Below are positions 252 to 63,238 of a DNA stretch of 64,000 nucleotides, piece after piece. The notes beneath the pieces are model-generated. The model did no database searches, was not told the DNA's origin, and saw only the letters and a program-made list of their open reading frames with translations. The position numbers were made by a program, and so were the translations under genes. Numbering within the stretch: position 1 is the first letter of the stretch; every line of letters starts with the position of its first letter. Origin of the DNA: a virus (Duplodnaviria; Heunggongvirae; Uroviricota; Caudoviricetes); IMG/VR virus record IMGVR_UViG_3300045988_162656; one strand, given 5' to 3'.

Positions 252-1352
252 ATGAGCGAGTCCAAATCGCCGGATGCCCTGAGAGCAATGGTAGCCGGTA
301 CGCTGGCTAATTTTCAGCACCCAACCCTGAAACACAACCTGACTACGCTTAAAGCGTTACACCATGTTGCGTTGATGGATGACACACTGCATGTCGAACT
401 AATCATGCCTTTCGTGTGGAATAAGCCTTTTGAAGACCTGAAAGAGCAATGTAGTGGTGATCTGCTCCGTATCACTGGCGCAAAGGCTATTGACTGGAAG
501 CTGTCGTACAACATTGCCACGCTTAAGCGCGTCAAAAACCAACCAGGCATTAATGGCGTTAAGAACATTATCGCCGTCAGCTCAGGCAAGGGCGGCGTGG
601 GTAAATCCTCCACGGCGGTAAACCTGGCACTGGCGTTGGCTGCTGAAGGTGCGAAAGTTGGTATTTTGGATGCCGATATCTATGGTCCATCAATTCCAAC
701 CATGCTGGGCGCGGAAAACCAACGTCCAACCTCACCTGACGGTACTCACATGGCACCTATCATGTCTCATGGCCTGGCAACCAACTCTATTGGTTATCTG
801 GTCACCGACGACAATGCAATGGTGTGGCGTGGACCGATGGCCAGCAAGGCGCTGATGCAGATGTTGCAGGAAACTCTATGGCCTGATCTGGACTATCTCG
901 TTCTCGATATGCCGCCGGGCACTGGTGATATTCAGTTGACGCTGGCGCAGAACATTCCTGTAACTGGTGCGGTTGTGGTAACTACGCCGCAAGACATCGC
1001 GCTGATCGATGCGAAGAAAGGCATTGTGATGTTCGAAAAAGTCGAAGTGCCGGTACTGGGTATCGTCGAAAACATGAGTGTGCATATTTGCAGTAACTGC
1101 GGTCATCACGAGCCAATTTTTGGCACCGGTGGCGCACAGAAACTGGCCGAGAAATACAACACGCAGTTGTTAGGCCAAATGCCACTTCATATCTCTCTTC
1201 GTGAAGATCTGGATAACGGAACACCAACCGTTATTAGTCGTCCAGATAGCGAATTTACGGCTATTTATCGTGACCTCGCAGATCGCGTTGCTGCCCAAAT
1301 GTATTGGCAAGGTGAAGTAATACCTGGCGAAATCGCATTCCGCGCAGTGTGA
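252..1352 (+). CDS. apbC: Fe-S cluster carrier ATPase Mrp/ApbC
   Basis: 366-aa ORF with Walker A GKGGVGKSS and CxxC motif; near-identical to enterobacterial Mrp as recalled; SD aaggag upstream. Confidence 0.95.
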   Translation: MSESKSPDALRAMVAGTLANFQHPTLKHNLTTLKALHHVALMDDTLHVELIMPFVWNKPFEDLKEQCSGDLLRITGAKAIDWKLSYNIATLKRVKNQPGINGVKNIIAVSSGKGGVGKSSTAVNLALALAAEGAKVGILDADIYGPSIPTMLGAENQRPTSPDGTHMAPIMSHGLATNSIGYLVTDDNAMVWRGPMASKALMQMLQETLWPDLDYLVLDMPPGTGDIQLTLAQNIPVTGAVVVTTPQDIALIDAKKGIVMFEKVEVPVLGIVENMSVHICSNCGHHEPIFGTGGAQKLAEKYNTQLLGQMPLHISLREDLDNGTPTVISRPDSEFTAIYRDLADRVAAQMYWQGEVIPGEIAFRAV

Positions 1353-1814: not shown

Positions 1815-1951
1815 ATACATGAAAGAAGCTCACTCAGTGCAACTGATCGGTACATAGCACCAGACAAAGGAACGTTATTTTCTCGAACAAGAAAAGGTAG
1901 AAAACAAATTGTTTAAGGCCACAACTAGTGGCCTTAATGGAGAAGGGATGC

Positions 1952-2515
1952 TTATTGGCTATGGCTAAAAATCAAATGAGACACTTCATTTGGTTGTAGC
2001 TCGTCAAGATCCGGGGCCACAAAACCTTTTCCGAAAGACTTCACAAGTGATTCACCAGCCGCATCATTGTCACCTATTACGCGAAAGTCATACGGCAGCA
2101 TTGCCAGTTGACGACGTAATCCTGCTGAGAAAGTCGAACCTAACAGCGCCCACGAATTTCCGCCCGCGTTGTGCACTGCTGCACTTTTAAAAATCGACTC
2201 AGTTATCCATATCGGTCCATCTTTTAAAGGAAGATAGGTTCCCCATAGTAGCTGTCTGCCGTGCGCTCGTGTGAAATACCGGGCCATCTTCGGATTGCTA
2301 TGCTGCTTAGGAGCGCCTGGTCTGTATGTCTGATACCCGGCCAACATCCCATCAAACCTGTATAGAGGGAATGTAACAACTCCTTCGCTTTCATCGATCC
2401 ACTGTCTATATGGATGCACATCATAGCGGTAGTTACGAGTTAGCAAATGAGCTTCCAGCTTTCCAAATTTAGTCATAACTTCGCATCCCTCATAACACTT
2501 CCCATTTATCACCAT
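1952..2515 (-). CDS. hypothetical protein, possible TOPRIM-like acidic motif (VIGDNDAAGE)
   Basis: 187-aa ORF in the co-directional operon; motif call is by eye only. Confidence 0.4.
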   Translation of the reverse strand: MVINGKCYEGCEVMTKFGKLEAHLLTRNYRYDVHPYRQWIDESEGVVTFPLYRFDGMLAGYQTYRPGAPKQHSNPKMARYFTRAHGRQLLWGTYLPLKDGPIWITESIFKSAAVHNAGGNSWALLGSTFSAGLRRQLAMLPYDFRVIGDNDAAGESLVKSFGKGFVAPDLDELQPNEVSHLIFSHSQ

Positions 2516-3344
2516 ATTTCTCCATAGCTCTTAGCCAATAAACATGGCCACTAGGCATAGTGATGTGAGGCTCGCCAAACTCTTCTCCATGTACATCAAA
2601 GATGTCCCCAACAGAAAATTGGGGGATTTCTGTTCCGTTTTCACCTATATGTGTAATTCGTATACGTTTCGGTTGGGATTGTCCACCTTTGAGCGAGTTG
2701 TTCACTGCTCTGGCAATTTTCTCCCGCAATTGCTGCGTTCCGTGATACGTAACCGCAATATCCCGCAACTCATTCACTAGTTCTCGAATTTGGTGATCTT
2801 TAAGCTCATTATTTGGGTGATTGGTAACAACTCTGGTTAATTCCCCATTGTCTTTTGCTCTTACGTATGCAGCTCTTGTGCATTCGCCCCATGTATTACC
2901 GCCTACATTAACTTCGTAGATTAGGCTGGACTTATCTGTCAATTCGGAACAAATACGGGCCGTGGTCTGGCAACTAGAGCATTCGCAGTTATCGCGGAAA
3001 CCGTGGTCTACTGGCTTCGGTTTAACATCATCAACTTTTTCTACCCTATTGGAATTTAAATACTTCGAAGCCTTGCTATGCCAATCGCTGGTTTTAGGAT
3101 CTTGTCCATCCATCAAACGCCAGGCTTCAGCTATTAACTCATAACTAGTGACTGTAGCTTCCTGCGCATCACCAATAAGTCGTGTAATCTCTCTTTCAAG
3201 CCGACCGCCTAACTCCGTTTTAGTGCAATGTTCTGACCAATCGCCAGTCTCAAGAAGCGCGAGAATGCTTAAAATATCGTCCAATAGAACGGTAGTATTA
3301 TCGACTTCCTTCTGAAACTCACCGGCTACTGATTTATGCATCAT
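2490..3344 (-). CDS. hypothetical protein
   Basis: 284-aa ORF, co-directional with neighbours. Confidence 0.45.
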   Translation of the reverse strand: MMHKSVAGEFQKEVDNTTVLLDDILSILALLETGDWSEHCTKTELGGRLEREITRLIGDAQEATVTSYELIAEAWRLMDGQDPKTSDWHSKASKYLNSNRVEKVDDVKPKPVDHGFRDNCECSSCQTTARICSELTDKSSLIYEVNVGGNTWGECTRAAYVRAKDNGELTRVVTNHPNNELKDHQIRELVNELRDIAVTYHGTQQLREKIARAVNNSLKGGQSQPKRIRITHIGENGTEIPQFSVGDIFDVHGEEFGEPHITMPSGHVYWLRAMEKYGDKWEVL

Positions 3345-3568
3345 TCGTCATCCTCATCCGAGTCATCCTCATCACAGGATGAGAGTAGTGGGTTAGTCAT
3401 TCGCCCTACTTGAGTGGCGTAGCCACGCCGACAGAGATTGCGCAGCACACTGTATATTTCGAACATCTCGGTTCGTTCATCGCCAACATCAAGCTCAGAT
3501 GCTATAGCGTGGCATTCAGTCGCGAGAGCCGATATTTTCTGAAATAACTCTGCTTTATTCACTCTTCG
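3341..3568 (-). CDS. small hypothetical protein with acidic C-terminal tail (DEDDSDEDDE), probable GTG start
   Basis: ORF 3341-3622 overlaps upstream gene; in-frame GTG at 3566-3568 preceded by aggag overlaps the upstream stop. Confidence 0.3.
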   Translation of the reverse strand, partial: RRVNKAELFQKISALATECHAIASELDVGDERTEMFEIYSVLRNLCRRGYATQVGRMTNPLLSSCDEDDSDEDDE

Positions 3569-4130
3569 ACTCCTGCGGAGGTTCTGGTAGCGGCATCCAG
3601 TGAGTTGCTTGCTCAATACCATTACCCGGCTTAATCGTTACATCTCCGCGCCGAAAGGTGATTCCGGTATAGCGTGCGGAGCATATTAGCGGTTCAACCA
3701 GAGAGCTATCGAAATTCACCGAAATAAGCACGTTCTGGCCCTTTTCAGGCATTCGCTCACTACAGCTTATCCAACCATCCGGAGTTACCGGATGGGGTCC
3801 AGCGAACTCGGGAATGTCAGGACCTTTTCTGATAGCTTTAGCCAGATCCAGCGGGTCATCGTAAAGCCAGTCGCCAGTTTGTGGGTGATTTGCTTCTGCA
3901 AGCTGCGCAGCCCATTCAAGACCATCTTTTTGACCTTGGAGATAATCAAGCGGCAACTCTTCATGATTACTTGCAGGTTCTGCACTATCAGCTTCGCGCC
4001 GCTTCTGTAGCTCTGCTGCCATCGCTCTCACGACTTCAACTGGTGCCCTTGCAGCAAACTCTATGTTGGTGATCAGCTCATTAAGATATTGCTCGCCTGG
4101 ATACTGTTTCTTATCGGTTATAGTGGTCAT
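3555..4130 (-). CDS. hypothetical protein, C-terminal DUF551-like region (GWISCSERMPE...VLIS)
   Basis: ORF trimmed to internal start MTTITDKK directly after upstream stop; domain call by recollection. Confidence 0.4.
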   Translation of the reverse strand: MTTITDKKQYPGEQYLNELITNIEFAARAPVEVVRAMAAELQKRREADSAEPASNHEELPLDYLQGQKDGLEWAAQLAEANHPQTGDWLYDDPLDLAKAIRKGPDIPEFAGPHPVTPDGWISCSERMPEKGQNVLISVNFDSSLVEPLICSARYTGITFRRGDVTIKPGNGIEQATHWMPLPEPPQESKSE

Positions 4131-4131
4131 A

Positions 4132-4518
4132 TCACTCTCCTTTTCCCTGAAGCATAGCAGCGCGGCAGGCATTCCAGCCTCTCACCTCTGCAATAGCGGC
4201 AACAGCATCAACCGCGTACATGCTAAGAGGATTAGGCATTGGTTTTTCTTCCGGTACTACTGGAACGGGTGGAGCGGCGTAGACCTCAATAATTCCATTA
4301 TCAATAGGCCATTCTCCATCCTTGAGGTAGTCACTTGTGCCGTCAACTTGCTGTTCTGCAATGTGGAATGCACCTATTGGTTTTGCTTCCAGCGATGCCA
4401 GAGCAATTCGTGCCAGTTCTTCCGCTTCTTCTGCTGGCAGTACAACGTTGCTACCAGGTCCGTATGTTTCGCGCCACTGTTTGATTGTCAGTAGTCGCTC
4501 TTTGGTAATAGTGGTCAT
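4132..4518 (-). CDS. hypothetical protein
   Basis: 128 aa, begins MTTITKE, ends GKGE with stop abutting next start. Confidence 0.45.
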   Translation of the reverse strand: MTTITKERLLTIKQWRETYGPGSNVVLPAEEAEELARIALASLEAKPIGAFHIAEQQVDGTSDYLKDGEWPIDNGIIEVYAAPPVPVVPEEKPMPNPLSMYAVDAVAAIAEVRGWNACRAAMLQGKGE

Positions 4519-4528
4519 GTGTTACTCC

Positions 4529-4792
4529 TTAACCCGCAGTGCTTTCAACTGATGAGGGGAACAAAATCTTTTCATCAAACCCTGCATTCATATCATGAAC
4601 AGCAACACACCAATCCATCGACGAACGATTATCAAGAGCCTCCATGATTTCATCCATGCAGCGCAGGTCATACAGGTAAATGCTTTTATCGCCAATGGTG
4701 TAAAAACCAATTTTTTTCGGTGATGGGCAGCGATCAAGAACGTCCTGTAATTCGTTCAACCATGCCCGTTCTTTTTTTGTTAAAGTTGCCAT
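4529..4792 (-). CDS. hypothetical protein
   Basis: start MATLTKKE at 4790-4792 preceded by aaaggagag RBS. Confidence 0.45.
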   Translation of the reverse strand: MATLTKKERAWLNELQDVLDRCPSPKKIGFYTIGDKSIYLYDLRCMDEIMEALDNRSSMDWCVAVHDMNAGFDEKILFPSSVESTAG

Positions 4793-4793
4793 A

Positions 4794-5315
4794 TCACTCT
4801 CCTTTGATGCGAATGCCTGTTGCAATGCTGTTTATGATGCTGTCAGTGCATGGAGTAGAAAGCTGGGCATCTCCAGCAATTTTCATGACCTCAACATCCG
4901 CATATCGAATACCGAGGTGTATCAGACCGGCTATACCTGACTTAAGTCGAACATTTTCCATAAACAGATCTTTTTCCCGCTGTTTAGCGGCTTCCAACTC
5001 CATCGACAATTTTTCCAACTGCTCTTTATGCTTCTTGTATTCCTGATACGCGTGCCAAGACTGACCTTTGCGCACACTATCAGTGATATCAGCAACCTGC
5101 TCCGGTGTTAGCGTGGTCAGTGGCTGTGCTGGAAAAATCATCACTTTCCCGGCATCCCAATCAAAACCCGCCTGAATTGACTGAACCTCAACTGATGGTG
5201 TTGAACCGATGCGACCAGGCGAATGAACAACGATCGTTACATCCATATCGCGACGATGGCTGTGGTTGTTGGACAAAATACGATTCACCAACTCAGAAAA
5301 TTTGGAAAATTTCAT
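4794..5315 (-). CDS. hypothetical protein
   Basis: ORF trimmed to MKFSKF start overlapping upstream stop (ATGA); ends GIRIKGE. Confidence 0.45.
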
Positions 5316-5635
5316 GCTGATCCCTCTTTCTCTCCCCGGATAATTCTGTTGCACACATCCACACACTCGTCGCAGATGAAAACGGCGTCCCCAGCAATTA
5401 ACTTTTTGACGGCGTACTGGGATTTGTTGCAGAAGCTGCAACAAAGTGTTCGCCTGACTGATAAGGATGGAGCGCCAGATGTCAGCCGCTCCATATCGTT
5501 CTTGCGACGCAATATCACACGGCTGAACTCAACCAGTTTCTCCGGGGATATCTCCTCCTCCGTAGCAAGCGCCTCTAATCGTTCGAGTATGTGGAAGGCT
5601 TTTTTCTGGGTAATTGCAGAATGCGATGTGGTCAT
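5312..5635 (-). CDS. small protein with C-terminal ClpX-type C4 zinc-binding domain (no AAA+ module)
   Basis: C-terminus [40 protein letters not shown] closely parallels the ClpX N-domain ([39 protein letters not shown]); start MTTSHS coupled to upstream gene. Confidence 0.6.
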
Positions 5636-5636
5636 C

Positions 5637-6167
5637 TCACTCTCCTTTGATGCGAATGCCAGCGGCGCGGGAATCATTCCATCGCTTTACTTCTTCACGA
5701 ATTACGTCAATGCATTCTTTCGAATCCATTAGGTAATCTTCATCAAAAAGACGTTCCTGTTCGTTTTCTATCGCAACAATGATTGCTTCAACTAACTTTT
5801 GTGCCTGAGAATCACTTTCTAACTCTGCTATGCGCTTACTTCCATCCGAGATAACGCCCTCGTAATACTCACGCTGCTCGTTGAGTTTTGATTTTGCCAA
5901 CTCCAGTTGTTTTGTTAGTTCCGCAATACGGCAAACATCGTTGATACGCGTTTCCTCTAATGCGTTGATCTCATCCAGTAGTGCCAGCACGGTTTCTGGT
6001 CCGGCCAGAAATTTGAAGGCGTTGAGGGCATCAATATCAACACCGCTATCTTTAAGTTCCTGTTCACTTAACAAGTCATCATCAGCTGGCAACATTAACA
6101 GGCGTTCCATTGCTGGAATTGCACGTTCCGCCACCTCACGCAGTGCCTGGTAATTAATTTCGCTCAC
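5637..6167 (-). CDS. hypothetical coiled-coil protein
   Basis: 176 aa, ends GIRIKGE; ATGA overlap with upstream gene. Confidence 0.45.
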
Positions 6168-6706
6168 TGGTTGCCTCCTTTGCGAAGCTGGGCAGCAAAG
6201 TCAACTAACCACTCAGTCATTTCAACCTTCCCTACCAGGTCTGAACCAGGGTGCATACAGCAATCACTCTGCGCCGCTTTGAAATCCTTATACTCATATT
6301 CTTGGGCCACCAGATTTTTTGCAGCTTCTATAGCAGCATCCACCCCCTGCGCACGTACTTCAGCCAGAAAAGCATCGGTGGCTGGAGTCTCCGTTAATTC
6401 GCTAACCCAATTATCTCCGTGTTCCTCGGCACACATCGCATCGAATGCTCGCTCAGATTCTTTCAGGGCTGCATTCTCCGCCGCTAATGCGTCTCTCTGC
6501 GCCCGCAACTTCTCAATTTCGGCAGCCATGTAGTAACCAACCATAGCGAAGACGGCAAAAGAGTTGTCTGCCTCATCAGGCGACACTGAGGCCATTAGCA
6601 GACCATCGTAATAATCGTGACTCCCATTGGTGATCGCCACCGCATAGGAGTCGTGGTTCTCACGCTTGTGAATGAGAACTACGGGGTTTTCGATTTTGTT
6701 ACTCAT
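6164..6706 (-). CDS. hypothetical protein
   Basis: 180-aa ORF with the conserved aaaaacacatg initiation region. Confidence 0.45.
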   Translation of the reverse strand: MSNKIENPVVLIHKRENHDSYAVAITNGSHDYYDGLLMASVSPDEADNSFAVFAMVGYYMAAEIEKLRAQRDALAAENAALKESERAFDAMCAEEHGDNWVSELTETPATDAFLAEVRAQGVDAAIEAAKNLVAQEYEYKDFKAAQSDCCMHPGSDLVGKVEMTEWLVDFAAQLRKGGNQ

Positions 6707-6844
6707 GTGTTTTTCTCTTCTTTGCTGTTACATAAGCACTACCAAGTGCTGGTTTATTTTCACAAATAAGAAAATGTAGAAAACAATTTATTTAAGGCCA
6801 CAACTTATGGCCTTTATTTATTCATGCCGAAGGATTTGTAGCGT

Positions 6845-7225
6845 CTAATTGCCGTATAAAATGGGGTGAGGTGCTTGCCAGTAGGCTCCACCGGTCCATG
6901 TGAACCCCATGCGAATAAGAGTGTTTATTGCGGCTTTGGTAGACTCCGATTCGACACTGGCTTTACGAAACTCTTGAACCTCTTTCGCCAACCTGTATGT
7001 AATTGTGCAGGGGACGATTGCAGCCCAGCCTTTCTCATGACTGTTAATGACCATCTGGATGTGACCATCCAGAATAGGTTGATTAGACATGTTATTGAAA
7101 ATGTCTGCCTGTTTTTGAATGTGAAGAAAAAGCCTTGCCAGCTCCATTTGCTCACTACGAGACAAGGGATTATCAAGAGGGCTTTTTGCAAAAGCGGCTA
7201 TACGCTGTGCGTCAATGCCAAACAT
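6845..7225 (-). CDS. hypothetical protein
   Basis: 126-aa ORF; stop overlaps start of upstream gene region. Confidence 0.4.
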   Translation of the reverse strand: MFGIDAQRIAAFAKSPLDNPLSRSEQMELARLFLHIQKQADIFNNMSNQPILDGHIQMVINSHEKGWAAIVPCTITYRLAKEVQEFRKASVESESTKAAINTLIRMGFTWTGGAYWQAPHPILYGN

Positions 7226-7929
7226 CAGCGCACCTCACCATCTTTATGGCTGGAGTTAACTTCCGCCATTAAATGTCTGACGTAATCGACAAGAGAGCCA
7301 CCTGGTGGAATCTGGCATTCCTCAACTAACTGGAAGTAGATATCCGCAGCATTACGTGTATTGCTACCCGCGCATATTCTTTCTTCCCGAAGTGCATGAA
7401 GCTCGTTGATCAAACGGTCACACTCTCCGTTACGCTGATCCACAACAGCCTCAAGTTCTGCGACGCGTTCACCTGGCGTCTTACCTTCTTCGCGTTGGAT
7501 GGTAACGACGAAATCGCCAATTGCAGGGACGTTGTAATCCAGCTCAAGGTAGTTTTTGGCACCGCTGCGGACGAACTCACCCGCGAACATGGTGGCGAAC
7601 ATCTCAGAGGCCATTGTGCTGTTGAAAAGTGACTCCAGATCTAACGGAGTCCCGGCAGCCAGAGCCTCTTTTGCTGTATCCATTGTATCCATGAACCGAT
7701 CAAACTCATTAGCGCGCTTTTCCAGGTCTTTCCATTGCTCGCTCCAACGTTTGGCAATGAAGTCTATGAATGTTTTCGCGGATTCATCAAAATCCCCCTC
7801 AAACTTAACGATGCCTTTATCAATAATGATCTGGCCTACCGCATCCTCTGCATAACCTTTCAATGTAAACTTGAAAGGAAAATCAGAATGGCCTGTGACG
7901 TTAAAATGCTCTAACTGGAGGTTGTTCAT
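7225..7929 (-). CDS. hypothetical protein
   Basis: 234-aa ORF, first gene after a promoter-like palindrome at 7964-7984. Confidence 0.45.
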   Translation of the reverse strand: MNNLQLEHFNVTGHSDFPFKFTLKGYAEDAVGQIIIDKGIVKFEGDFDESAKTFIDFIAKRWSEQWKDLEKRANEFDRFMDTMDTAKEALAAGTPLDLESLFNSTMASEMFATMFAGEFVRSGAKNYLELDYNVPAIGDFVVTIQREEGKTPGERVAELEAVVDQRNGECDRLINELHALREERICAGSNTRNAADIYFQLVEECQIPPGGSLVDYVRHLMAEVNSSHKDGEVR

Positions 7930-11305: not shown

Positions 11306-11602
11306 ATGTTTTCCTTAATGCTTAAACAAGTTGTTTTCTTATTGGCTTTATTGTGATGTGGCATAAAAGGGGAGCAAGCTAAACGTAAAGGTGCAAACTC
11401 TCTATTTCGGTCAACGAAACACAATGGCCATTTGACCCTTGTCATTAACACGTTGCTTTACGGACTAGCGGATAAGCGAAGTAGATCGCCAGACCAATGA
11501 GGACGCCATCAGAAATGACAGACATCATCTTTCCCGTAAAATCCACCAACACCGCCATCACCAGAAGAGCAATGACGGTCACAAGCCGGAATCTCTCAAG
11601 CA

Positions 11603-22239: not shown

Positions 22240-22344
22240 GTGTTTTTCCTTTTGCTTTTTGATGTGTTTAAACAAGTTGTTATCCTATTTGTTTAAACAA
22301 GGCTTACAAATCAAAGAGAAGGTGGGGATACACCCCACCATATG

Positions 22345-35775: not shown

Positions 35776-35870
35776 AATTAACTTAACCTTTTAACAAATT
35801 GTTTTCTTGTGTGTGATAATAACGAGAATAAAACGGCGTCCAACTGGACGCCTGATCTTCTTAATGAGAG

Positions 35871-48186: not shown

Positions 48187-48286
48187 GGCTAATCCTTTGT
48201 TATGAAAACAAATTATTTACTAGTGTGTTTAATGTAGCACTGCGCGAACAGGGAACTAAGCCATTCGCGCAGGTAGCAGAGAGGGG

Positions 48287-59856: not shown

Positions 59857-59899
59857 GTGCTTTCCTTTGTTTTTTAAACAAATTGTTTTCTAGTATTAG

Positions 59900-63076: not shown

Positions 63077-63238
63077 TGGAGAGTTTCCTTTGCGTCTATT
63101 ATTATTGTCTGAAACAACTTGTTTTCTTATATGTGATATAGCCTAAATGCCTACGGCTGCTGTGTAAAGGTTTAATGATAGGTACATAGATTTGGTAAGG
63201 ACTTAATAACAAAAAACCCGCCGTAGCGGGTTTAGGAA

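What the first reader, a model, noticed from the sequence alone, without database searches (positions are those of the whole stretch)
1952..7929. Operon of more than 12 translationally coupled small unknown genes with recycled gene ends
Genes overlap by ATGA or 1-4 nt throughout. Two gene ends share an identical 24-nt tail (encoding GIRIKGE, whose codons double as the next gene's Shine-Dalgarno), a third ends GKGE, and three genes begin MTTIT or MTTS. This suggests cassette shuffling at conserved junctions, typical of hypervariable host-takeover or anti-defence regions.
Basis: seen in the sequence. Interest (0 to 1): 0.5.

Follow-up and report, generated by a model that had tools for sequence, protein, structure and literature searches.

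The report
Shuffled phage accessory genes with shared linkers
This is a block of small early accessory genes of the kind found in lambda-like phages, sitting in an E. coli phage-plasmid; its genes are joined by short standard connector sequences that hold the ribosome-binding site and are reused between unrelated genes in hundreds of phages, so it is a clear example of a known mode of phage gene shuffling rather than a new kind of system.

Summary
Twelve tightly packed minus-strand genes lie at 1952-7929. Two of them end in the same 24 nt, GGCATTCGCATCAAAGGAGAGTGA (encoding GIRIKGE plus the stop codon). A third ends in GKGE, and three begin MTTIT or MTTS.

The window is an SSU5-like E. coli phage-plasmid, 99.8% identical to p09EL50. 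Genes g3-g12 form a lambda exo-xis/"ea"-type accessory array containing Ea22-like, ClpX zinc-finger and DUF551 genes.

The 24-mer is a widespread intercistronic linker (Shine-Dalgarno AAGGAG, then TGA, one base, then ATG):
- It occurs in at least 330 deposited phages and at least 120 IMG/VR contigs, and in lambda ea22 itself.
- It joins 14 unrelated upstream classes to 19 downstream classes, in 53 combinations.

Among eight near-identical relatives the flanks are collinear, but g3-g12 vary from 7 to 14 genes. Homology breakpoints are enriched about 3-fold at gene junctions. The closest relative differs by one cassette flanked by 17-nt linker repeats.

Cassette shuffling at conserved junctions is therefore supported. 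The anti-defence or host-takeover role is untested, and g1-g2 are conserved and separated from the rest by a hairpin-containing gap.

The concept is known ("boundary sequences", Clark 2001). The modest new points are that the unexplained "+GE" ending of Ea22 proteins is linker-encoded, and that the same linkers occur in lambdoid phages, SSU5-like elements and a P1-like phage.

The parts
7225..7929 (-). g1, 234 aa. A conserved phage-plasmid gene (PHROG 8364, unknown function). It lies outside the variable block.
   Evidence: Present in 8 of 8 E. coli relatives at 95-100% nt identity. 75% aa identity in Salmonella phage SSU5.
6845..7225 (-). g2, 126 aa. Conserved; overlaps g1 by 1 nt (TGATG).
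6754..6817 (.). Upstream copy of the 64-nt repeat D2. It contains the hairpin AAGGCCAC..GTGGCCTT and a copy of the 17-nt motif GAAAACAAnTTGTTTAA, and marks the right edge of the variable block.
   Evidence: (D2, 86% identical to 1875-1938). Relatives' collinear homology resumes at 6754.
6164..6706 (-). g3, 180 aa, 'Eae-like'. A mosaic protein that ends in RKGGNQ.
   Evidence: several partial PHROG matches. Intact in only 1 of 8 relatives.
6163..6179 (-). Linker 2, AGGAGGCAACCAGTGAG. It combines a Shine-Dalgarno sequence with an overlapping GTG start and TGA stop.
   Evidence: 73 instances in 45 contexts among the fetched loci. It flanks the extra DUF7446 cassette in p09EL50 as a 16/17 direct repeat. 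It is also present in the P1-like phage JL22.
5637..6167 (-). g4, 176 aa, an Ead/Ea22-family protein ending in AAGIRIKGE.
   Evidence: Pfam PF13935, E = 7.6e-24.
5633..5669 (-). Linker 1, copy a: CGCGCCGCT-GGCATTCGCATCAAAGGAGAGTGA-G-ATG.
5312..5635 (-). g5, 107 aa, begins MTTS. A stand-alone ClpX-type C4 zinc-finger protein.
   Evidence: Pfam PF06689. Matches the E. coli ClpX zinc-binding domain 2DS5, E = 1e-14.
4794..5315 (-). g6, 173 aa, unknown function, ends in ATGIRIKGE. It is not an Ea22-family protein.
4790..4817 (-). Linker 1, copy b: GGCATTCGCATCAAAGGAGAGTGA-T-ATG.
   Evidence: In 330 phage records, most BLAST matches start exactly at the first base of the 24-mer. Six of eight relatives have a homology breakpoint at 4802-4812.
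4529..4792 (-). g7, 87 aa (PHROG 1714). A highly conserved cassette.
   Evidence: 285 IMG/VR contigs encode a relative; the 80 best are 98-99% identical at the aa level, with at least 10 upstream and 6 downstream flank classes.
4514..4531 (-). Linker 3, TAAGGAGTAACACATGAC. The stop codon overlaps the Shine-Dalgarno sequence.
   Evidence: Conserved in front of several different downstream genes.
4132..4518 (-). g8, 128 aa, begins MTTIT and ends in AAMLQGKGE. Its N-terminal 45-aa module is shared with other proteins.
   Evidence: Its first 45 aa are identical to those of JL22 EaA. There is an intragenic breakpoint at about 4381-4418.
4128..4164 (-). Linker 1, variant c: ...GCTGCTATGCTTCAGGGAAAAGGAGAGTGA-T-ATG.
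   Evidence: The same AAMLxGKGE-type junction precedes g7 in 26 of 80 unbiased loci.
3555..4130 (-). g9, 191 aa, begins MTTIT, with a C-terminal DUF551 domain.
   Evidence: Pfam PF04448, E = 6.8e-22. Breakpoints at 3792 (the domain boundary) and at 3555-3570.
3341..3562 (-). g10, 73 aa, GTG start, overlaps g9 by 8 nt.
2490..3344 (-). g11, 284 aa, unknown function. Annotated 'EaA' in a relative.
   Evidence: No PDB relative by sequence.
1952..2476 (-). g12, 174 aa. A toprim/primase-like fragment.
   Evidence: RefSeq 'toprim domain-containing protein'. PHROG 849, DNA primase, E = 1.3e-52.
1875..1938 (.). Downstream copy of repeat D2, with a terminator-like hairpin. It marks the left edge of the variable block.
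   Evidence: Relatives' homology breaks at 1780-1868.

Best explanation
What it is. The region is the early accessory-gene array of an SSU5-like E. coli phage-plasmid. Its variable core, g3-g12, is built from the same cassette pool as the exo-xis/'ea' region of lambdoid phages.

The linkers. Cassettes are joined by a few standard intercistronic linkers. In the main one, the last codons of the upstream gene (AAA GGA GAG = K-G-E) are themselves the Shine-Dalgarno sequence AAGGAG. They are followed by TGA, one base, and the next ATG.

Two proposed effects:
- Expression (inferred). Any gene placed behind a linker gets a strong ribosome-binding site at about 6-nt spacing and is translationally coupled to its neighbour.
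- Exchange (supported by comparative data, not shown experimentally). The 24-45 nt of near-perfect identity shared by otherwise unrelated genes gives host or phage homologous-recombination enzymes a substrate. Co-resident prophages and phage-plasmids could then swap, gain or lose whole cassettes in register. Exchanges also occur at conserved segments inside genes, so many of the proteins are themselves mosaics.

The tails. On this reading the C-terminal tails (GIRIKGE, GKGE, GGNQ) are by-products of the linker DNA rather than family-specific protein motifs.

What the cassettes do. By analogy with the lambda exo-xis genes, they most likely fine-tune host physiology and the lysis-lysogeny decision early after infection or induction. 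This is inference only.
For: Identity of the element:
- The window is 99.8% identical to p09EL50. It is collinear with eight E. coli SSU5-like phage-plasmids, and its methyltransferase and g1 are conserved in Salmonella phage SSU5.
- Only 3550-6390 (g3 to g9) matches the 120 lambdoid IMG/VR loci in a local BLAST. Deposited Stx, lambda-like and P22-like phages match parts of it at about 89-97% nt identity.
- g4 is an Ead_Ea22 protein and g9 carries DUF551.

The linker is shared and modular:
- A 71-nt query centred on it hits 330 phage records, and most matches begin exactly at base 1 of the 24-mer and end at ATG +0 to +3.
- Among 119 instances there are 14 unrelated upstream classes, 19 downstream classes and 53 combinations.
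- About 21 unrelated C-terminal domain classes carry a +GE tail.
- An unbiased sample anchored on g7 shows at least 10 upstream and 6 downstream flank classes joined through three or four linker variants, plus 'empty' linker-to-linker scars.
- Lambda Ea22 itself ends in GIRIKGE with the exact 24-mer, although no ATG follows it there.

Recombination at linkers:
- Among eight relatives the flanks are collinear at 96-99% identity. g3, g7 and g8 are present in 1 of 8, g9 in 2 of 8 and g4 in 4 of 8, and the arrays hold 7-14 genes.
- 44% of homology end-points lie within 30 nt of an intercistronic junction, against 14.5% expected. For distinct breakpoint clusters the figure is 20 of 50, p = 9e-6.
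- p09EL50 differs from the window by one 241-nt DUF7446 cassette bracketed by the 17-nt linker AGGAGGCA(A/G)CCAGTGAG, with flanks 99.8-100% identical.

Reach beyond lambdoid phages: the same linkers and cassettes are in the P1-like punavirus JL22, but are absent from Salmonella SSU5 and a Klebsiella relative.

Literature:
- Short conserved boundary sequences have been proposed as recombination foci (Clark 2001, as cited in PMC3029335 and PMC2327257).
- Ea22 proteins are mosaic and 'all end with +GE, significance unknown' (PMC7093339; PMC10834534).
Against: - No experiment here shows recombination at the linkers or translational coupling.
- Many breakpoints (about 55-60%) are intragenic (3792, 4381, 5000, 5836-5969, 6388). 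The linkers are therefore not the only exchange points, and illegitimate or homeologous recombination also contributes.
- The 120 IMG/VR loci used for the breakpoint statistic were selected for containing the 24-mer, which inflates counts at two of the seven junctions.
- Breakpoints shared by descent are not independent events.
- The most conserved core of the linker (AAAGGAGAGTGA) is exactly the part that selection for a ribosome-binding site would conserve anyway.
- The functions of all cassettes remain unknown.
- No sigma-70-like promoter was found on the coding strand, so the transcription pattern is unresolved.
Confidence: 0.78

Rival explanations
1. The shared ends reflect only convergent or purifying selection for a strong ribosome-binding site and translational coupling. 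The linkers play no role in recombination, and cassette diversity arises by illegitimate recombination followed by selection for intact genes.
For: - The invariant core across all linker variants is AAAGGAGAGTGA(N)ATG, that is, Shine-Dalgarno plus stop plus start.
- Most breakpoints are not at linkers.
- The prevailing view in the field is that most mosaic joints lack boundary sequences (PMC3029335).
Against: - Identity extends 12-21 nt upstream of the Shine-Dalgarno sequence, at synonymous positions of G-I-R-I, and is nucleotide-exact in hundreds of genomes on unrelated genes.
- Lambda keeps the exact 24-mer although no start codon follows it.
- The p09EL50/window indel is bounded precisely by linker repeats.
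- Breakpoints are enriched 3-fold at junctions.
Confidence: 0.1
2. The GIRIKGE/+GE tail is a functional C-terminal peptide kept by protein-level selection. It could be, for example, a tag recognised by the ClpX zinc-binding domain or by the stand-alone ClpX zinc-finger protein g5, or a stability signal.
For: - The tail is attached to about 21 unrelated domains.
- By my recollection, I-R-I-K loosely resembles the SspB XB motif (LRVVK) that binds the ClpX zinc-binding domain. This was not checked here.
- The array encodes a ClpX zinc-binding-domain look-alike.
- The Ea22 literature flags +GE as unexplained.
Against: - Conservation is at the DNA level, with identical codons rather than varied synonymous ones.
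- The tail varies (GIRIKGE, NIGIKGE, MLQGKGE, SNKGE, RTKGE) wherever the DNA upstream of the Shine-Dalgarno sequence varies. Only the Shine-Dalgarno-encoded K-G-E is constant.
- g5-type genes follow the linker in only 4 of 119 instances.
- Other linkers encode quite different tails, such as GGNQ.
Confidence: 0.06
3. Local paralogy. g4, g6 and g8 share ends, and g5, g8 and g9 share starts, because of tandem duplication and divergence within this one element.
For: The last 70 nt of g4 and g8 are 70% identical (repeat D3).
Against: - The bodies of g4 and g6 are unrelated, with different Pfam and PHROG matches.
- The same ends and starts occur on many other gene families in hundreds of other phages.
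Confidence: 0.03
4. An integron-like, site-specific cassette system in which the linker is a recombination site for a dedicated recombinase.
For: The architecture is cassette-like, with a reused junction, a precise one-cassette indel and empty-site scars.
Against: - No integrase or recombinase is annotated within 12 kb in any of the relatives.
- The junctions have no significant secondary structure or inverted repeats.
- The extent of shared sequence varies from pair to pair (24, 27-30, 33 or about 45 nt), as expected for homology-driven rather than site-specific exchange.
Confidence: 0.03

Closest known systems
Lambda exo-xis region and P22 'ea' region (ea22, ea8.5, orf60a/61/63, eaA-eaI): the early-left accessory genes of lambdoid phages
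   Same: - The same gene families are present: Ead/Ea22, DUF551, and EaA- and EaE-like genes.
- Cassettes are shared at about 89-97% nt identity.
- The same linkers are used; lambda Ea22 ends with the identical 24-mer.
- Both are tightly packed, co-oriented small genes that are non-essential and mosaic.
   Different: - Here the array is not between exo/bet and xis/int in a pL operon. It lies between a DUF4942 methyltransferase and an S24 UmuD-like gene in a 109-kb SSU5-like phage-plasmid.
- It is bracketed by a 64-nt hairpin-containing repeat.
- Its gene content differs: it includes a toprim fragment and a ClpX zinc-finger protein, and no homologue of the small lambda exo-xis genes (orf60a/61/63, ea8.5) was noted, although this was not specifically searched for.
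'Boundary sequences' between functional modules (Susskind and Botstein modular theory; Clark et al. 2001, phage HK620)
   Same: Short conserved sequences lie exactly at gene boundaries, are shared by a subset of related phages, and are joined to non-homologous genes on either side. They were proposed as foci of homologous recombination.
   Different: - I could not read Clark 2001, so I cannot say whether these particular linkers were among those described.
- Here the linker is shown to be the Shine-Dalgarno/stop/start module itself, to encode the '+GE' protein tails, and to occur outside lambdoid phages (SSU5-like elements and a P1-like phage).
Integron gene-cassette arrays
   Same: Both are arrays of promoterless, co-oriented cassettes with a reused junction element. 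Single cassettes are gained and lost precisely.
   Different: There is no integrase and no structured attC site. Exchange appears to be homology-driven, and the junction doubles as coding sequence and ribosome-binding site.
Phage morons and accessory-region hotspots
   Same: These are non-essential, variable genes inserted between conserved genes. The block as a whole is flanked by terminator-like hairpins.
   Different: Individual cassettes lack their own promoter and terminator and depend on linker-mediated coupling.

Membership tests
Lambdoid exo-xis / 'ea' accessory region | Contains an Ead/Ea22-family gene and associated cassette families (DUF551 and others) | tested here: met
   PF13935 E = 7.6e-24 for g4; PF04448 E = 6.8e-22 for g9.
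Lambdoid exo-xis / 'ea' accessory region | DNA-level homology to the corresponding region of lambdoid phages | tested here: met
   Window 3550-6390 is shared with Stx, lambda-like and P22-like phages at about 89-97% identity. The exact 24-mer is at the end of lambda ea22.
Lambdoid exo-xis / 'ea' accessory region | Position between the recombination genes (exo/bet or erf) and xis/int in the pL operon of a lambdoid genome | tested here: not met
   The array lies between a DUF4942 DNA methyltransferase and an S24 UmuD-like gene plus apbC and metG, in an SSU5-like phage-plasmid.
Lambdoid exo-xis / 'ea' accessory region | Immediate-early transcription and an effect on the lysis-lysogeny decision | not testable with these tools
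   Known only from the literature on lambda and Phi24B (PMC7093339, PMC10834534).
Boundary-sequence (linker) mediated module exchange | A short conserved sequence located exactly at gene boundaries | tested here: met
Boundary-sequence (linker) mediated module exchange | The same boundary sequence is joined to non-homologous genes on both sides in different genomes | tested here: met
   14 upstream by 19 downstream classes, 53 combinations. 45 contexts for linker 2. g7-anchored sample.
Boundary-sequence (linker) mediated module exchange | Homology breakpoints concentrate at the boundaries | tested here: met
   44% observed against 14.5% expected; 20 of 50 distinct clusters, p = 9e-6. Caveat: the loci were selected for containing the 24-mer, and more than half of the breakpoints are intragenic.
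Boundary-sequence (linker) mediated module exchange | Recombination actually occurs at the boundary sequence | tested here: inconclusive
   One recent single-cassette indel is bracketed by 16/17-identical linker repeats, and there are empty-site scars. No experimental test was possible.
Integron cassette array | An adjacent IntI-type tyrosine recombinase | tested here: not met
   None is annotated within 12 kb in eight relatives.
Integron cassette array | Structured attC sites between cassettes | tested here: not met
   No significant folding at five junctions, z = -1.8 to +0.7.
Known anti-phage defence systems (PADLOC) | Significant match of any cassette to a defence-system protein model | tested here: not met
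   Only one weak match among 10 proteins: g8 to PglZ, E = 0.0016. Anti-defence function could not be tested.
SSU5-like phage-plasmid | Collinearity with SSU5-group elements around the region | tested here: met
   99.8% identity to p09EL50 and 96-99% collinear flanks in eight relatives. The methyltransferase is 92% and g1 75% identical at the aa level in SSU5.

The most novel reading that the evidence does not exclude
The linkers are not passive relics. They are a maintained, cross-lineage 'standard connector': a 24-45-nt Shine-Dalgarno/stop/start module kept nucleotide-identical because it does two things at once. It guarantees expression of whatever cassette follows, and it lets RecA or Red/RecT/Erf-type recombinases swap accessory genes in register among lambdoid prophages, P1-like phage-plasmids and SSU5-like phage-plasmids in the same E. 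coli cell. In effect this would be an integrase-free analogue of an integron. A more speculative add-on is that the encoded I-R-I-K tail also serves as a ClpX zinc-binding-domain ligand.
Probability: 0.25. Interest if true: 0.6.

Novelty: new member of a known kind. Interest (0 to 1): 0.35.

Why it matters
- It gives a concrete, quantified example of the long-debated 'boundary sequence' route to phage mosaicism: one linker, at least 14 by 19 gene classes, and a caught-in-the-act single-cassette indel.
- It explains a published puzzle. The '+GE' ending of all Ea22 proteins is simply the Shine-Dalgarno sequence and stop codon of the linker.
- It shows that the same connectors and cassettes circulate between three unrelated groups of E. 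coli temperate elements: lambdoid phages, P1-like phages and SSU5-like phage-plasmids, the last of which also carry CTX-M-15 in some relatives.
- Practically, the linkers could serve as PCR or search anchors to harvest the accessory-gene pool of enterobacterial prophages, and as ready-made homology arms for cassette engineering.
- It does not reveal a new biological mechanism.

Tried and rejected
- RNA folding of five junctions looked for RBS-sequestering or attC-like structure. Nothing was significant.
- The consensus promoter scan found no sigma-70-like site on the coding strand and only the two D2 hairpins as convincing terminators, so the transcription units stay unresolved.
- PADLOC gave one weak sub-threshold match. 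PHROGs gave only 'unknown function' families for g1-g11 and primase families for g12. Pfam gave nothing for g1-g3, g6-g8 and g10-g12. PDB sequence searches found nothing for g9, g11 and g12. No function can be assigned to most cassettes.
- Clark et al. 2001 could not be read, so the link to 'boundary sequences' rests on how other papers cite it, plus my recollection.
- The GTDB scan for the 24-mer was meant to give the taxonomic range. Instead it mostly returned phage-lambda DNA contaminating unrelated assemblies. That was useful only for showing that lambda carries the exact linker.
- Salmonella SSU5 and a Klebsiella relative were checked for the array. They have only the methyltransferase and g1 (SSU5 also part of g2), and no linkers.
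- Local tandem duplication and an integron-like mechanism were considered and rejected; see the rival explanations.
- I ran no further search on individual cassettes, because the finding concerns the junctions rather than any one gene.

Full report
**1. What is there**

The window is an SSU5/pHCM2-type E. coli phage-plasmid.
- Region 1952-7929 is 99.8-99.9% identical over its whole length to plasmid p09EL50 of E. coli O104:H4 and to 'Escherichia phage CMS-2020a'.
- The surrounding genes are typical of that group and all lie on the same strand. They include metG, apbC, an S24 UmuD-like peptidase, a DUF4942 DNA methyltransferase, RNase H, and thymidylate synthase and DHFR.
- Twelve minus-strand genes fill the finding's coordinates. 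Their starts agree with RefSeq's annotation of the twin plasmid.
- They are tightly packed: three ATGA/GTGA overlaps, one TGATG overlap, one 8-nt overlap, three 1-nt spacers, and two spacers of 10 and 13 nt.
- There is one real interruption, a 138-nt gap between g2 and g3 that holds a hairpin.

**2.

- GGCATTCGCATCAAAGGAGAGTGA occurs exactly twice, at the ends of g4 and g6, with zero expected by chance.
- AAAGGAGAGTGANATG occurs three times, at the ends of g4, g6 and g8, against 0.01 expected.
- g8 ends in QGKGE. g8 and g9 begin MTTIT (ATGACCACTAT), and g5 begins MTTS (ATGACCACA).
- In the frame of the upstream gene the last codons AAA GGA GAG TGA read K-G-E-stop. The same bases form AAGGAG about 6 nt upstream of the next ATG.

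**3. What the region is**

- g4 is an Ead/Ea22-family protein, g5 a stand-alone ClpX-type zinc finger, g9 a DUF551 protein and g12 a toprim/primase-like fragment.
- Every best PHROG family of g1-g11 is of unknown function. Many of the proteins match several PHROGs over different parts of their length, so they are mosaics at the protein level.
- At the DNA level, window 3550-6390 (g3 to g9) matches hundreds of Stx-converting, lambda-like, P22-like and Shigella phages at about 89-97% identity. Parts of the region occur in 3,423 of 5,426 complete E. coli genomes.
- This is therefore the cassette pool of the lambda exo-xis / P22 'ea' early accessory region. The region is known to be non-essential and mosaic, and to influence the lysis-lysogeny decision (PMC7093339, PMC10834534).

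**4. The shared gene end is a widely reused linker**

- A 71-nt query centred on the g6/g7 junction hits 330 deposited phages. Most matches begin exactly at the first base of the 24-mer and end 0-3 nt after the ATG, which delimits a discrete 27-30-nt module.
- I clustered the 150 nt on each side of 119 instances. This gave 14 unrelated upstream classes, 19 unrelated downstream classes and 53 different pairings (protein-level view).
- Six of the 19 downstream classes begin ATGACCAC.
- About 21 unrelated C-terminal domain classes end in [KR]GE: GIRIKGE on 15 classes, plus NIGIKGE, AAML(H/Q)GKGE, SNKGE, RTKGE and others.
- A sample not selected on the 24-mer gave the same picture. These were 80 loci anchored on the conserved cassette g7, taken from 285 hits. 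There are at least 10 upstream and 6 downstream flank classes joined through three or four linker variants that share (A)AAGGA(G/A)A(G/C)TGATATG. There are also 'empty' sites where a cassette start is fused directly to a cassette end.
- A second linker sits at the g3/g4 junction: AGGAGGCAACCAGTGAG, a Shine-Dalgarno sequence plus overlapping GTG and TGA, encoding the tail GGNQ. It occurs 73 times in 45 contexts.
- Phage lambda's own Ea22 ends in ...[10 protein letters not shown] with the exact 24-mer, yet no start codon follows it there. In lambda it is a relic.

**5. Variability among relatives**

- In eight E. coli SSU5-like elements, the flanks are collinear at 96-99% identity: 1-1800, and from 6754 onwards for as far as each fetched locus extends.
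- g3-g12 are patchy. g3, g7 and g8 are present in 1 of 8 relatives, g9 in 2 of 8 and g4 in 4 of 8. The arrays hold 7-14 genes, with other cassettes in their place, such as an HD-domain protein or DUF7446.
- g1 and g2 are conserved in all eight. g1 is also conserved in Salmonella SSU5 and in a Klebsiella relative, and part of g2 in SSU5. Both of those elements lack g3-g12 and the linkers entirely.
- The lambdoid-type cassettes therefore appear to be an acquisition of the E. coli lineage.
- The variable block is bracketed by two copies of a 64-nt repeat, at 1875-1938 and 6754-6817, that contains a terminator-like hairpin.

**6. Where exchanges happen**

- Breakpoints between the window and its relatives fall in or at the linkers: 4802-4812 in six of eight relatives, and also 4130, 5637-5669, 6166-6198 and 6706.
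- They also fall inside genes, at 3605, 3780-3793, 4418, 5824-5971, 6339 and 6472.
- Against the 120 lambdoid loci, 44% of 264 HSP ends lie within 30 nt of an intercistronic junction, against 14.5% expected. For distinct breakpoint clusters the figure is 20 of 50, binomial p = 9e-6.
- Two caveats apply. Those loci were chosen for containing the 24-mer, and shared breakpoints are not independent events.
- The clearest single case is the difference between the window and p09EL50. Their flanks are 99.8-100% identical, and they differ by one 241-nt DUF7446 cassette bounded on both sides by the 17-nt linker AGGAGGCA(A/G)CCAGTGAG. That is the footprint expected for gain or loss of a cassette by recombination between linker copies.

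**7. Mechanism**

Shown by these analyses:
- The linkers are discrete and nucleotide-identical on unrelated genes.
- They pair in many combinations, and they coincide with an excess of homology breakpoints and with a precise one-cassette indel.

Inferred:
- The embedded AAGGAG, with stop and start 1 nt apart, gives translational coupling and makes any downstream cassette expressible.
- The 24-45 nt of identity serve as substrates for RecA or for phage single-strand-annealing recombinases when several temperate elements share a cell.

The second inference matches the 'boundary sequence' idea attributed to Clark et al. 2001 (cited in PMC3029335 and PMC2327257). It also fits the demonstrated ability of lambda Red to recombine diverged sequences (PMC2327257).

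The junctions have no significant RNA or DNA structure, and no recombinase gene is nearby. An integron-like site-specific mechanism is therefore unlikely.

Because more than half of the breakpoints are intragenic, linker recombination is one route among several.

**8. Rival explanations**

- *RBS-only conservation.* This explains the invariant AAAGGAGAGTGA core. It does not explain the identical synonymous positions 12-21 nt further upstream, the relic copy in lambda, or the repeat-bounded indel.
- *A functional tail peptide.* One version is a ligand for the ClpX zinc-binding domain: I-R-I-K loosely resembles the SspB XB motif as I recall it, and g5 mimics that domain. This is not excluded but is weak, because only the Shine-Dalgarno-encoded K-G-E is constant across linker variants and other linkers encode unrelated tails.
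- *Local paralogy.* This is contradicted by the unrelated gene bodies and by the occurrence of the same ends across many phages.

**9. Comparison with what is known, and novelty**

- The array works like, and shares DNA with, the lambdoid exo-xis/ea region. It fails that region's positional definition, because it is not between exo and xis in a pL operon.
- It meets the descriptive criteria of boundary-sequence-mediated module exchange.
- The concept, the gene families and Ea22 mosaicism are all published.

Three modest points appear to be new:
- The published puzzle that 'all Ea22 proteins end with +GE; the significance is unknown' (PMC7093339) is explained by the linker. The tail is also not specific to Ea22.
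- The combinatorial use of one linker has been quantified.
- The same linkers and cassettes occur in SSU5-like phage-plasmids and in a P1-like punavirus. JL22 has the Ea22/gp104/EaA cassettes with the same three junction sequences, and its EaA shares its first 45 aa with g8.

I rate this a new member of a known kind, with moderate-to-low interest.

**10.

- 'Cassette shuffling at conserved junctions' and 'hypervariable' are supported for g3-g12.
- 'One operon of more than 12 genes' is slightly overstated.
- 'Host-takeover or anti-defence' is untested.

Noticed in passing
window 1900-1916, 6779-6795, 11322-11338, 22268-22284, 35790-35806, 48204-48220, 59874-59890, 63110-63126: A 17-nt near-palindromic motif, GAAAACAAnTTGTTTAA, occurs 8 times with up to 2 mismatches, against 0.08 expected. 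Two copies lie inside the D2 repeats that bracket the variable block. It is a candidate operator or promoter-associated site of the phage-plasmid.
   Followed up: partly
window 1875-1938 and 6754-6817: A 64-nt direct repeat, 86% identical, contains the hairpin AAGGCCAC..GTGGCCTT. It has only two full copies in the 64-kb window, and these sit exactly at the two edges of the variable g3-g12 block. It may be a terminator/promoter module or a recombination boundary for the block as a whole.
   Followed up: partly
window 5312-5635 (g5): A stand-alone protein whose C-terminal 40 aa closely match the zinc-binding domain of E. coli ClpX (PDB 2DS5, E = 1e-14). It could be a decoy for ClpX adaptors or substrates. 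An S24 UmuD-like gene lies just downstream of the array; by my recollection UmuD is a ClpX-tethered protein, which I did not check.
   Followed up: partly
window 252-1352 and upstream; locus L001 2110-5401: The phage-plasmid carries full-length host-like apbC (mrp) and metG genes next to the array. They are conserved in all E. coli relatives but absent from the corresponding region of Salmonella SSU5.
   Followed up: no
loci L212-L249 (genome-contig scan): At least 31 of the 38 species-representative genomes holding the 24-mer carry phage-lambda DNA, as 48.4-48.5-kb contigs or roughly 1-kb contigs, several of them at low coverage. The named species include Streptomyces, Shewanella, Bacillus and Prevotella. 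This looks like lambda control-DNA contamination of public assemblies.
   Followed up: partly
locus L126 17448-20938 (pIso00225_02) and similar plasmids H36-H38: In several relatives an ISEcp1-blaCTX-M-15 unit is inserted into g1, immediately upstream of the cassette array.
   Followed up: no
locus L250 6149-8330 (P1-like punavirus JL22): A P1-like phage carries the Ea22/gp104/EaA cassettes with the same linkers, again next to an adenine methyltransferase and close to humD (UmuD-like). This is the same neighbourhood as in the SSU5-like element.
   Followed up: partly
lambda contigs such as L213; IMG/VR loci such as L017, L023, L036: 'Empty' linker sites occur. In lambda the 24-mer is followed by GATCGG with no ATG. 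In other phages it is followed by ORFs of 4 or 7 codons, or by a cassette start fused directly to a cassette end (ATGACAACATGGGAAAGGAAAGTGATATG). These look like scars of cassette loss.
   Followed up: partly
window 4381-4518 (g8 N-terminus), 7090-7225 (g2 N-terminus): An N-terminal module of about 45 aa (..ITKERL...PLDN..R.EQMELARIALASLEA) recurs on different C-terminal domains: g8, g2, JL22 EaA and several IMG/VR cassettes. A hot intragenic breakpoint lies just after it, so it acts as an in-gene linker.
   Followed up: partly
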